From positions 214,148,001 to 214,212,000 of the forward strand of contig OZ024742.1 of assembly GCA_964016885.1 (NCBI GenBank): a DNA stretch of 64,000 nt, in the 5' to 3' direction. Positions 49,174 through 64,000 of the stretch are shown here, piece after piece (the stretch's first letter is position 1; every line of letters starts with the position of its first letter). A program made the position numbers and the translations under genes. Origin of the DNA: Eledone cirrhosa. Lineage: Eukaryota. Below the pieces are notes generated by a model that saw only the letters and a list, made by a program, of their open reading frames with translations, ran no database searches and was not told the origin of the DNA.

Positions 49174-49273
49174 GGTATTCTCTTGATAAGCTGGCAAACC
49201 TCACAAAGATACTGCATCTCTATGATGTAATGTTTTTGCATAGTTGCCACGAAACTGCGTAGTCGAGGATGTC
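49174..49273 (+). ncRNA. Type I hammerhead, U3-A8 core variant
   Basis: GGTATTCTC-TTGATAA-G(C)TGGCAA...TTGCCA-C-GAAA-CTGCGTAG-TC^GAGGATGTC. Confidence 0.75.
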
Positions 49274-49364
49274 GAAGAATATTGGGTATATATATATTTT
49301 TTATTTTTTTACTTATGTCTAACCTAATGTTTCTTATTTCTTTATAATGTATTATATATATATA

Positions 49365-50235
49365 TATCGTAGTGGACTATTGTATGCGCCTTGTACTGGA
49401 GAAACACCAGGACTCTGGCTTTACTGTAGCACCGGCTCAGAGCAGGAGAGTTAGGGCGAAAAAGGTATCGGATGCTGAATTTGCCGACGACAGAGTTTTG
49501 GTGACAAATACAGTGAAGGAGGCAGAGCATTTGATGCGTGAGGTTGAGACTGTGTCGATGAGTGTGGGGCTGAGAATGAATGAGACTAAAACAAAATATC
49601 TGGTAGAGAATGTTGAGAAGCCAGAGGGGATCACTAATGTAGGCGGGAGGCCGCTGGAATTGGTTGAGGACTTCCTGTATTTGGGAGCAAAGATTGGGAA
49701 TACGGAAGATGATGTGGTTGAGAGGAAGAGGAAGGCCTGGGCGGCGTGCCACAGCTTGAGATCGGTGTGGAAGTCGGACCTTCGTAGAGACCTGAAAATC
49801 CGCCTCTTCATTGCTGTAGTGGAGTCTGTGCTGCTGTATGGGTCTGAGACTTGGACACTGACCAAGAAACTCACTCAGATCGTGGATGGGTGCTACACGA
49901 GAATGCTGAGGATGGCTCTGAACATTAATCAGTATACACTGAGGATGAAAAACTCAGAGCTGTATGGGAGCATCCCAAAAGTCAGCTCAAAAGTGACACA
50001 GAGGAGAGTGAGGTTGGCTGGACATGCTCACCGACATCCAGAGTTGACATTGCACTCAGTGCTCCTGTGGGAGACCCTACATGGACACACTAGAAGAGGA
50101 AGACCAAGGTTAACGTATGTTGATGCCCTAAGGACAGACACTGGTCTGTTGGAGATGCAGGACATGGCAGTGATAATGAGGGACAGAGACCGCTGGAGAG
50201 AACTCGTCCATGGATCTCGGGAATTTTACCCGCCT
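49365..50235 (+). mobile_element. 5'-truncated RTE-like LINE (RT C-terminal ORF)
   Basis: ORF 49372-50313 has EFADD, GLRMNETKTK, DFLYLG, VLLYGSETWTL, RLAGH, GRPRLTY; flanked by (TA)n. Confidence 0.9.
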
Positions 50236-50320
50236 TATATATATACATATATATATATATATATATATAGAATAAGGAAAAGCGAAGTAGTTTCAGATGT
50301 TCAAGTCCTTTAATAATAAT

Positions 50321-50402
50321 GCTGTGATATTGTGATATATATTTCAATGGCGACACTGGCCACACTGTTCTGTGTGCGAGTGTCGTGACATCATCAGACA
50401 GC
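50321..50402 (-). ncRNA. Type I hammerhead
   Basis: Minus strand GCTGT-CTGATGA-..CGACACT..CACAC..GTGTG..AGTGTCG..-GAAA-TAT..ATA-TC^ACAGC. Confidence 0.75.
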
Positions 50403-50884
50403 TTGTTACATAATAAGGTTATGTTTCCGAGGCAATCCAAATTGAATCGACATGGGAACGGATGAAATGCGTGCTGTTGGGTTTCTCACCCGTTCCCCTG
50501 TGAGTACCAATTCACCCCCACCGGTCTGTGCGTGCGCACGTCCGAAGGAAGTTGACCATGAGCTACCGCAGATTTCAACGAAATTCGATTAGTCAGATCA
50601 CCCTCTCTGTCACACAATGGCCCGTACCATAGTTTACTGCTACCCATGTCGACTGTGGTAGTCAGTCGAAAGCCAGAGGGGATGGGAGAGTGTTAGTTTT
50701 TACAGGTCAGAATACTACCTCTTACCTACCGTGGACAGTACGACTGACCATCAACTCAAAGGGAAAATAAACTTAATTCTAGGTATCATGGTTTTACATT
50801 GTAAGTTAAGAGTGAGAGTTGGAAATAAAAATTAAAGTCCTAAATAAAGTATCAGAAATTATAAATTAAACAATTAAAAAATTA

Positions 50885-61506: not shown

Positions 61507-61547
61507 CGCTGTACTAGTTTCAAGCTTATTAGCTATCGTCAGCAACG
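61507..61547 (-). ncRNA. Minimal type I hammerhead
   Basis: Minus strand CGTTG-CTGACGA-T-AGCT-AATA-AGCT-T-GAAA-CTAG-TA^CAGCG. Confidence 0.8.
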
Positions 61548-61910
61548 TATACCTTCCTGCCAGATGATTGAACGTCTGATGGTATATACTTTCCTTATGC
61601 ATACTAACGGCTGCTCATATTAACTTCTACCTTTGTTTTGTTTTCATTTCATTTTTACTTTTCTCCTATTTCTCAGTCACTTCTTACCTCGAGATTTCCC
61701 ATCTGCATTGTTGTGGCTTTCTAAACTACATATTTTACACATTTCACAATGCTTCAAGCAAACTTTAACACCCTCTTATCATATATATATATATATATAT
61801 ATATATATATATATATATATATGTACCTAATACCGGTATATATATATATATATATATATATATATATACGATATTAAGAAATGCAAACTATATTTATAAA
61901 ACCATATTTG

Positions 61911-61971
61911 TTTCATTATACATATTTCAAGGACACCAAATTAAATTATGGTGTGCTTTCATCAGATAGAA
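61911..61971 (-). ncRNA. Type I hammerhead, family C variant
   Basis: Minus strand TTCTAT-CTGATGA-AAGCACACCA..TGGTGTCCTT-GAAA-TATGTA-TA^ATGAAA. Confidence 0.7.
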
Positions 61972-62189
61972 TATAATATAGAGCAGTTTTATAAATAAAT
62001 ATTGACATACCCTTAAAGAATGCAACCATTACTGTTGGAAGCTCCCGGATAGTCAATTACTCCAATTATTTGTTGAGTGCTTTATATCAGTTATAAAAAT
62101 ATTTACTTGTTGCATCCCAACAATTTAAATAGAACTTTTACATTTATATATATATATATATATATATATATATATATATATATATATAT

Positions 62190-63290
62190 ATTGGAATAAA
62201 TGCTCTGAAATAGCGATATATATGTGAATATAGACATAGAATATTCGAAAATATTCTGTATGTTTATAATAAACATTTTGAAGACCTAATCGCTATAGAA
62301 TAGAATACGTCACGTATTACAATTAGATTCTCGATAAAAGCAAGGGAAGTAATCTACGCGTTTCATTCTCGTTAGAAATCATCAGGACTACATATCCAGT
62401 GCTTTTATCGAGAATGACACAGCTAGAGACTTATAGAATACTTAGCTGTGTACAGGAACTGGTTTGAAAGAGCGGTTGCCGGTCCGGCAGAAATTAGAAA
62501 TTGGAATAAATGCTCTGAAATAGCGATATATATGTGAATATAGACATAGAATATTCGAAAATATTCTGTATGTTTATAATAAACATTTTGAAGACCTAAT
62601 CGCGATTAGGTCTTCAAAATGTTTATTATAAACATACAGAATATTTTCGAATATTCTATGTCTATATTCACATATATATCGCTATTTCAGAGCATTTATT
62701 CCAATTTCTAATTTCTGCCGGACCGGCAACCGCTCTTTCAAACCAGTTCCTGTACACAGCTAAGTATTCTATAAGTCTCTAGCTGTGTCATTCTCGATAA
62801 AAGCACTGGATATGTAGTCCTGATGATTTCTAACGAGAATGAAACGCGTAGATTACTTCCCTTGCTTTTATCGAGAATCTAATTGTAATACGTGACGTAT
62901 TCTATTCTATAGCGATTAGGTCTTCAAAATGTTTATTATAAACATACAGAATATTTTCGAATATTCTATGTCTATATTCACATATATATCGCTATTTCAG
63001 AGCATTTATTCCAATTTCTAATTTCTGCCGGACCGGCAACCGCTCTTTCAAACCAGTTCCTGTACACAGCTAAGTATTCTATAAGTCTCTAGCTGTGTCA
63101 TTCTCGATAAAAGCACTGGATATGTAGTCCTGATGATTTCTAACGAGAATGAAACGCGTAGATTACTTCCCTTGCTTTTATCGAGAATCTAATTGTAATA
63201 CGTGACGTATTCTATTCTATAGCGATTAGGTCTTCAAAATGTTTATTATAAACATACAGAATATTTTCGAATATTCTATGTCTATATTCA
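62190..63290. repeat. 310-bp tandem array (2.2 units) plus 413-bp inverted arm; minimal HHR in each unit
   Basis: GCGATTAGG recurs at 62602, 62912 and 63222; palindrome centre 62602/62603; HHRs at 62349-62391 (-), 62814-62856 (+) and 63124-63166 (+). Confidence 0.95.
62814..62856 (+). ncRNA. Minimal type I hammerhead of the 310-bp unit
   Basis: GTAGTC-CTGATGA-T-TTCT-AACG-AGAA-T-GAAA-CGCG-TA^GATTAC. Confidence 0.85.
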
Positions 63291-64000
63291 TATATATATA
63301 TATATATATATATATATATATATATATATATATATATATATATATATATGTATATATATATATATATATATATATATATATATATATATATATATATATA
63401 TACCTATATTAGGCACAGAACGGAAACCTGTTGATAACGTGAGTCCGGGTTCGTTCTTCAAATACCACAAACTTACATATTGCGGTAGTCGGATTGTTGA
63501 TTTTGGATTCATAGAAACCAATCGAGGTTATTGTATAATATCTCTCGATACGGTCCATGTTGTTATTTAACCTGATTGTATTTTCGTTGTCGTGGTGGCT
63601 TCTGTGGTGTTGTTCCCTAACCAGAGTTTTTATTTTGTCATGCTTTTTAATATATGTTTCTTACTCTACGGTGTAACCTATCGATTTATGGATATATTCT
63701 TATAGAGTGCTTAATGCAAATCCGAATTGTTACTTCGCGGATATTGGCCGCCGACTGTCTCATAACTTCGATTTTAACATTCCACCCGTATATATATATA
63801 TATATATATATATATATATATATATATATATATATATATATATATATATATATATATATATACATGGTGGTTGGAATGAAACTCTCTTTTGGAAATTACT
63901 TATAACTTTTGGCCTACTGTGACCACTGCGGACAACATCCATGACCAACATACATTCATGCAAGGTGGAGTCCCACGTCATAATATACACACTGTCTGTT

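What the first reader, a model, noticed from the sequence alone, without database searches (positions are those of the whole stretch)
49174..63535. U3-A8 hammerhead core recurs in at least three sequence-unrelated elements
Seen: TTGATAA cores at 49183 and 56006 and TTGACAA at 57363 (x3), each with independently pairing stems I, II and III and a GUC site. A fourth at 63431 keeps an 11-bp stem II (GTGAGTCCGGG/TTTGGATTCAT) and GAAACC..GGT but has a poor stem I. The 49174 and 56001 motifs share a bulged C after G10.1; the 57358 and 63431 motifs share a C.A at the stem II base. Both positions 3 and 8 change together in different stem contexts, which argues for selection rather than decay. Inference: a lineage of PLE-linked HHRs fixed for a rare core variant.
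Basis: partly seen in the sequence, partly recalled or inferred. Interest (0 to 1): 0.85.

Follow-up and report, generated by a model that had tools for sequence, protein, structure and literature searches.

The report
Ribozyme core pair caught mid-swap
The motifs are hammerhead-shaped, likely self-cutting RNAs of jumping genes with an already published U-A core pair, but one family's dated copies show it reached U-A from C-G through about a thousand copies with a mismatched, predicted-to-be-crippled core.

Summary
The motifs are real type I hammerheads with U3-A8 as the family majority: a Penelope-like element (56006, family B), two ORF-less tandem retrozyme-like families (49183, A; 57363 x3, C) and an older relative of C (63431, D, whose true GUC site is 63553-55). 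U3-A8 in Penelope hammerheads was published in 2014, so the headline is known. It is neither one lineage nor fixed: C3-G8 dominates the genome (77 of 113 census hits) and several families carry both cores.

The new result is in family B: 996 of 2,085 pattern matches carry an unpaired C3·A8 core, against 1,045 U3-A8. A tree with the core masked gives a ladder C3-G8, then C3·A8, then U3-A8; monophyly of C3·A8 is rejected (AU p 1e-5). During the mismatch phase the ORF stayed under purifying selection and the 44 structural positions did not change (5.6 expected). Sister family B' links the two cores through U3·G8. No cleavage or expression was measured.

The parts
49174..49273 (+). Family A type I hammerhead, U3-A8 core at 49183, GUC 49262-64; stem III is a 10-nt palindrome in the family (dimer type)
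   Evidence: palindrome ACTGCGCAGT in 28 of 38 copies, compensated ACTACGTAGT in 3
48715..49269 (+). One unit of family A, an about 590-bp repeat that lies in short tandem and head-to-head arrays elsewhere (retrozyme-like)
   Evidence: 73% to the tandem unit in L219; 7,109 matches, about 591-bp spacing
53268..56189 (+). Family B Penelope-like element, 5'-truncated: RT plus C-terminal GIY-YIG-like ORF remnant (53298-54791, one internal stop), 1.2-kb 3' region, two 3' ends at 56109 and 56189
55995..56108 (+). Family B type I hammerhead, U3-A8 core at 56006, GUC 56087-89; youngest (T7) subfamily, end point of the C3-G8 > C3·A8 > U3-A8 ladder
57151..58975 (+). Family C: three tandem 615-bp ORF-less units, each with a U3-A8 hammerhead (cores 57363, 57978, 58593), C·A at stem II base, long stem III
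   Evidence: arrays of 14 or more units elsewhere; longest open frame 62 aa
63424..63562 (+). Family D hammerhead, U3-A8 core at 63431, long stem III, GUC 63553-55; decayed copy of an older family related to C
52445..52485 (+). Canonical C3-G8 hammerhead downstream of another Penelope-like ORF (control; 16,637 matches, first 100 all C3-G8)
62813..62855 (+). Canonical C3-G8 hammerhead in a 310-bp tandem repeat (further copies at 63130 and minus-strand 62385)

Best explanation
These are hammerhead-shaped motifs, likely self-cleaving, of one Penelope-like element and of ORF-less tandem families, and U3-A8 is a known, repeatedly reached substitute for the C3-G8 core pair; in family B the copies show the swap in two steps, through a mismatched C3·A8 state that is predicted to cut poorly. 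How it works: (recalled structure) nucleotide 8 supplies the 2'-OH general acid and is held by a Watson-Crick pair with nucleotide 3, so U-A can stand in for C-G. (Inferred) In A and C, tandem transcripts would be cut at GUC into monomers that circularise and are copied by a Penelope RT in trans; A would cut as a dimer through its palindromic stem III. (Shown) In B both 3' ends of the copies lie 20 and 100 nt downstream of the cleavage site, so those copies were templated by RNA not cut at that hammerhead. (Shown by tree) One master lineage went C3-G8, then G8A, stayed C3·A8 for about 0.11 substitutions per site while making about half of the family's hammerhead-bearing copies, then fixed C3U. 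(Inferred) Mobility needs the fold at this position but tolerates weak cleavage, while restored pairing is mildly favoured.
For: Counts: C3·A8 996, U3-A8 1,045, U3 with non-A8 18, C3 with non-A8 5 of which 2 C3-G8. Tree of 53 copies on 533 columns with positions 3, 7, 8 masked: 6 C3-G8 rows basal, G8A node 100/96, C3U node 100/100; root placed by sister family B'; C3·A8 monophyly rejected, p-AU 1.2e-5; the 2.2-kb unrooted tree shows the same near-to-far order. T7 U3-A8 is youngest: 2.4% from its majority against 3.8% and 3.9%. ORF changes shared among C3·A8 copies are 30 synonymous to 12 non-synonymous against 79 to 159 for private changes, p 5e-6. Structure: 0 changes at 44 sites against 5.6 expected, p 0.004. 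One U3-A8 clade for B plus B' rejected; both cores in families G, H and L148/L320. Literature: U3-A8 in PLEs (PMC4209133) and in nature (PMC3088659); catalytic mutants do not impair PLE insertion in vitro (PMC11167929); single mutants at this pair have low activity in a deep scan (PMC9901934).
Against: No cleavage or RNA was measured. In the deep scan of PMC9901934 only the G-C swap rescued, so U3-A8 itself was weak in that ribozyme. Only 6 basal C3-G8 copies, with 450-490 aligned bases, anchor the order. The ORF-based tree with distant outgroups left the root unresolved (C3·A8 monophyly 69/75), and site polarisation there was 15 to 11 with 11 uninformative. The 5' half alone gives no significant conservation (0 against 2.0, p 0.13) and was part of the search patterns; the 3' half may be kept as an RT signal. 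C3·A8 and G7 U3-A8 copies look equally old by distance to majority. In run X3 the T>C change at 56006 was not listed at 5%. The neutral chance of the exact C3U change over that span is about 1 in 10 (my estimate), so selection for repair is only suggested.
Confidence: 0.68

Rival explanations
1. The C3·A8 core still cuts well enough (protonated C·A wobble, help from the element's protein, or G7 slipping into the G8 role in CUGAGAA), so no fitness valley was crossed and cleavage stays essential.
For: The whole fold and GUC site were kept through the phase; 97 of the first 100 C3·A8 matches have G7; the Anolis PLE hammerhead cut only with protein (PMC11167929).
Against: Single mutants of this pair are low or inactive in PMC9901934 and PMC11167929 (C3G, G8C tested there, not G8A); G7 was inherited from the C3-G8 ancestor, so it needs no special role.
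Confidence: 0.3
2. None of the Penelope-borne motifs needs to cut: the fold is kept as an RT-binding or priming structure and the core drifts.
For: 27,336 matches to the 3' half of B against about 2,085 with the core; copies end downstream of the site; HHR-less Naiads thrive (PMC8557442).
Against: Core positions 4, 5, 6, 9 and GAAAC stay invariant; paired states far outnumber mismatched ones across families (107 of 113 census hits, 99 of 104 without L324); compensated palindromes in A.
Confidence: 0.15
3. C3·A8 is a decayed side branch of a U3-A8 ancestor, or the ladder is an artefact of recombination or gene conversion among copies (my own reading until).
For: Sister family B' is mostly U3-A8 (87 of the first 100 of 327); similar ages; L347 looks mosaic.
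Against: C3-G8 copies sit between B' and the C3·A8 ladder; monophyly rejected.
Confidence: 0.12
4. One reading: one lineage of PLE-linked hammerheads fixed by selection for a rare core variant.
For: A, C and D are nearly uniform for U3-A8.
Against: Published variant; about a fifth of census hits; several separate switches; B is half C3·A8.
Confidence: 0.07

Closest known systems
U3-A8 minimal hammerheads in pLTRs of Cercyon Penelope-like elements, Schistosoma mansoni (Cervera and De la Pena 2014, PMC4209133)
   Same: Type I topology, U3-A8 core, long helix II, place in the 3' repeat of a PLE, palindromic helix III (family A), head-to-head truncated copies.
   Different: Loop II here is 37-65 nt; B, C and D have a full helix III; C and D have C·A at 10.1-11.1; the extra bases in A and B follow G10.1, whereas the paper's extra nucleotide lies between 9 and 10.1. 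The parts I read mention no amplified mismatch intermediate.
Natural U3-A8 covariation (Perreault et al. 2011, PMC3088659)
   Same: Same compensatory pair, described as already active in vitro.
   Different: No evolutionary series; mismatched cores were filtered out as cryptic mutants of repeats.
Non-LTR retrozymes of animals (Cervera and De la Pena 2020, PMC7229834; bioRxiv 10.64898/2026.07.22.740005)
   Same: ORF-less tandem units with one type I hammerhead each (A about 590 bp, C 615 bp), coexisting with PLEs.
   Different: Units are longer than the 170-400 nt reported and carry U3-A8; circular RNA not shown here.
Anolis Poseidon element PAc (Frangieh et al. 2024, PMC11167929)
   Same: Hammerhead in the pLTR, two 3' ends giving a tail, insertion from uncut RNA.
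   Different: That was in vitro with engineered C3G and G8C; here a natural G8A lineage kept transposing in a genome.

Membership tests
Type I hammerhead ribozyme | Three helices around a YUGAN(G/A)A / GAAA core with A15.1-U16.1 and NUH site | tested here: met
   for A, B, C; family D (window copy damaged in stem I)
Type I hammerhead ribozyme | Watson-Crick pair between positions 3 and 8 | tested here: met
   U3-A8 in all six window motifs; not met in the 996 C3·A8 matches of family B
Type I hammerhead ribozyme | G10.1-C11.1 pair | tested here: not met
   Met in A and B; C·A in C and D. Mismatches here also occur in C3-G8 families and U·U is known (PMC3088659)
Type I hammerhead ribozyme | Match to an Rfam hammerhead model | tested here: not met
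   none at E<=1, also none for the canonical window motifs, so the test is insensitive here
Type I hammerhead ribozyme | Self-cleavage at the predicted site | not testable with these tools
   No RNA holder listed; only contigs laid
Penelope-like element (family B) | Single ORF with RT and C-terminal GIY-YIG endonuclease | tested here: met
   648-aa frame in L277 with YRDD and VIY..YIG motifs read by eye; atlas neighbours at 0.95-0.96 carry RVT_1, GIY-YIG, PF26215. Pfam and PDB searches gave no significant hit
Penelope-like element (family B) | Tandem pseudo-LTR layout, inverted truncated copies, 3' tail | tested here: met
   repeats 3.5 kb apart, head-to-head pairs, ends at 56109 and 56189 in (TA)n
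Penelope-like element (family B) | Named clade (Penelope/Poseidon, Neptune, Nematis, Hydra) | not tested
   No RT tree with reference elements was built
Non-LTR retrozyme (families A, C) | Tandem ORF-less units each with a type I hammerhead | tested here: met
   C. A: tandem spacing; absence of an ORF only from no consistent PLE hit within 1.5 kb
Non-LTR retrozyme (families A, C) | Abundant circular RNA monomers | not testable with these tools
PLE or retrozyme (family D) | Linked ORF or tandem array | tested here: inconclusive
   Dispersed 0.5-0.8 kb pieces, no consistent ORF

The most novel reading that the evidence does not exclude
A retrotransposon lineage kept jumping for a long stretch with a broken ribozyme active-site pair, left about a thousand dated copies of that state, and then repaired it with the compensatory change, while its sister family crossed between the same two cores by the other route (U·G). 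This is a natural fossil record of valley crossing in a ribozyme core and genomic evidence that Penelope elements need the hammerhead fold more than its cut.
Probability: 0.5. Interest if true: 0.72.

Novelty: new variant of a known kind. Interest (0 to 1): 0.52.

Why it matters
What hammerheads do in endonuclease-bearing Penelope elements is stated to be unclear (PMC8557442), and the one direct test was in vitro (PMC11167929). Family B offers three natural, successive versions of one ribozyme (C3-G8, C3·A8, U3-A8) in nearly the same scaffold, each from a lineage that transposed. Measuring them tests whether cleavage is needed for mobility and how deep the valley between two working cores is. 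It also warns that descriptor searches, which drop mismatched cores, would miss half of such a family. The U3-A8 pair itself is not news.

Tried and rejected
Rfam scan: only microsatellite-driven miRNA hits. Type III reading of motif D: rejected once the downstream GUC and stem I were found. Homology of A and B: none. My first polarity (C3·A8 derived from U3-A8) was overturned by the C3-G8 copies. Mutation rates in stems against loops per copy were dropped as biased by the search patterns. A pattern for full-length B' hammerheads gave 18 matches, only 4 of them whole ribozymes. Eight U3-A8 and one U3·G8 census hits in L324 come from an AT-rich tandem repeat and are treated as artefacts. L197 (C3·A8) has C3-G8 relatives and looks like decay. 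Sequencing runs: no RNA holder listed. Contigs laid on 55900-56185: X3 covered it deeply with a different subfamily mix and no 56006 T>C at 5%; upstream markers of that subfamily were also missing while its downstream markers stood near 30%, so absence and detection bias cannot be told apart; X1 and X4 gave nothing, X6 six pieces. MFE folding gives the three-way junction for B and C but not for A, D, the C3·A8 copy L256 or D copy L125. Pfam and PDB did not recognise the B protein. Paper searches for an amplified C3·A8 or G8A hammerhead found none.
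Full report
1. Observation. The cores are at the stated places. A descriptor scan with positions 3, 7 and 8 free recovered 49183 (stems 9/7/3-4 bp), 56006 (5/7/6) and 57363, 57978, 58593 (5/5/6; the third has a 3-bp stem I), all with GUC. Scores of 37-46.5 were not reached in two shuffles of 864 kb. The bulged C of 49183 is private to the window copy (1 of 38). With the universal core masked, A, B and C are unrelated; C and D connect through a third family K. Rfam missed every hammerhead in the window, canonical ones too.

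2. What the elements are. The window lies in a 3.0-Gb genome. B is an autonomous Penelope-like element: an RT and endonuclease frame upstream, repeats 3.5 kb apart, head-to-head truncated copies and two 3' ends at 56109 and 56189. C is a 615-bp ORF-less unit in long tandem arrays. A is an about 590-bp unit in short arrays whose stem III is a palindrome with a compensated variant, the sign of a dimeric hammerhead. D is older (copies 84-89% alike) and unlinked to any ORF that I could find.

3. How common U3-A8 is. In 120 evenly spaced 10-kb stretches of seven large contigs (1.2 Mb), 113 type I hits scored 28 or more: 77 C3-G8, 30 U3-A8 (8 of them an AT-rich artefact in L324) and 6 others; shuffles gave 5.3 in all and no C3-G8 or U3-A8. 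These are copies, not families. The window itself holds canonical motifs at 52450, 62820, 63130 and minus-strand 2157, 25644, 61542 and 62385. Three further families hold both cores: G (3 C3-G8 and 11 U3-A8 of 14 rows), H (one each among 4 rows, two degenerate) and L148/L320. Within families, genome-wide: A 99 of the first 100 of 7,109 U3-A8; D 31 of 31; C 1,211 U3 and 0 non-U3, with 15 of the first 100 U3·G8 from a single array; the canonical control family 100 of the first 100 of 16,637 C3-G8.

4. The unexpected result. In B the same 22-base context gives 1,045 U3-A8, 996 C3·A8, 18 U3 with another base at 8, and 5 C3 with another base at 8, of 2,085 matches (the remaining 21 have G or A at 3). 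I fetched 40 loci chosen from these lists for long or paired copies. C3·A8 copies have their own flanks, private changes and PLE tails, so this is no assembly artefact. ORF changes shared between C3·A8 loci are 30 synonymous to 12 non-synonymous, private ones 79 to 159 (p 5e-6): the lineage passed through rounds of transposition with a working protein.

5. Direction. My first reading was decay from U3-A8, because sister family B' is mostly U3-A8 (87 of the first 100 of 327) and ORF outgroups left the root open. But one search also showed C3-G8 and U3·G8 copies; a further search listed 20, of which I fetched 16 (a 17th was already held). Six belong to B. With positions 3, 7 and 8 masked, B' roots B among its C3-G8 copies (50 rows, one per locus, two short rows dropped). 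On 533 columns and 53 rows (one per locus, at least 300 aligned bases) B forms a ladder: C3-G8, G8A (100/96), many successive C3·A8 nodes, C3U (100/100), G7 U3-A8, then T7 U3-A8. The one C3·A8 row inside T7 is a private back-change. Holding C3·A8 together is rejected (p-AU 1.2e-5), as is one U3-A8 clade for B and B'. Backbone length in the mismatch phase sums to about 0.11. In that phase background sites changed at 0.126 per site and the 44 structural sites not at all (5.6 expected, p 0.004; 5' half alone p 0.13). In B', U3·G8 copies group with C3-G8 copies inside a U3-A8 grade: the other one-step route, with direction less certain.

6. Mechanism. From recalled structural work, nucleotide 8 gives the 2'-OH acid and is held by pairing with 3, so U-A can replace C-G. 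For A and C the retrozyme cycle (cut, circularise, copy in trans) is inferred from PMC7229834. For B the sequence shows that copies extend past the cleavage site, so their templates were uncut there, as PMC11167929 found in vitro, where C3G and G8C also left insertion unchanged. Single mutants at this pair are weak in PMC9901934, but so was U-A in that ribozyme, so the activity of all forms here is open. The best reading is that mobility needs the fold and tolerates weak cutting, with pairing mildly favoured. The main rival is that C3·A8 still cuts.

7. Against this reading. Nothing was measured at RNA level. Six short copies anchor the order. ORF polarisation was 15 to 11 with 11 uninformative. 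C3·A8 and G7 U3-A8 copies are equally far from their majorities (3.9% and 3.8%; a ladder inflates the first). Run X3 did not list the C3 change at 5%, which is either a different subfamily mix or detection bias. All pattern counts need exact flanks and so miss older copies.

8. Literature seen. PMC4209133: parts 1-2 of 4 and supplement passages, one supplement file not searched. PMC3088659: passages and section 8 (17, 77). PMC11167929, PMC9901934 (supplements listed only), PMC8557442, PMC7229834, PMC2920678: passages. bioRxiv 10.64898/2026.07.22.740005: part 1 of 5 (13); its supplements are closed. Przybilski and Hammann 2007, the in vitro test of 3-8 exchanges, was not held and may give G8A rates; Lunse 2017 and Arkhipova 2017 are recalled only. 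Searches found no report of an amplified C3·A8 hammerhead, in a library that lacks most subscription papers. Earlier notes of this scan on other genomes also file U3-A8 as known.

9. Verdict. As stated, the finding is a set of new members of a published variant (about 0.2 alone). The stepwise series in B, with a thousand copies of the mismatched intermediate, is a new variant that makes an open question testable; overall 0.52.

Noticed in passing
G000 genome-wide; window 56067-56189, relatives at 56653-56690 and 59030-59145: 27,336 exact matches to the 3' half of the B hammerhead against about 2,085 with the core. Most of the 30 loci read are 150-250-bp head-to-head stubs truncated inside stem II, in (TA)n, so truncation and inversion cluster in the ribozyme.
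   Followed up: partly
G000:C1:119982676-119991310: A family C array of at least 15 units all carrying U3·G8: one change spread by local tandem amplification.
   Followed up: no
window 62185-63299: 310-bp tandem retrozyme-like repeat with a canonical C3-G8 hammerhead, U·U at the stem II base, in a perfect 418-bp inverted arrangement.
   Followed up: partly
window 52450, about 61046, minus 25644: Very abundant canonical PLE hammerhead family (16,637 matches) whose predicted site reads CUA or CUU, with C15.2 replaced by G.
   Followed up: partly
L086:660 minus, L158, L159, L308, L262 (family G); L077/L209; L148/L320: Further families with both C3-G8 and U3-A8 members; intermediates not searched.
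   Followed up: partly
window 49348-50240: 3' part of another, LINE-like reverse transcriptase element inserted in (TA)n right after the family A hammerhead.
   Followed up: no
window 43201-47881: Large near-perfect inverted repeat (arms of 690 and 735 bp) around microsatellite-rich DNA.
   Followed up: no
L347 (G000:C1:65977654-65980673): Copy that looks mosaic between families B and B', with U3·G8.
   Followed up: no
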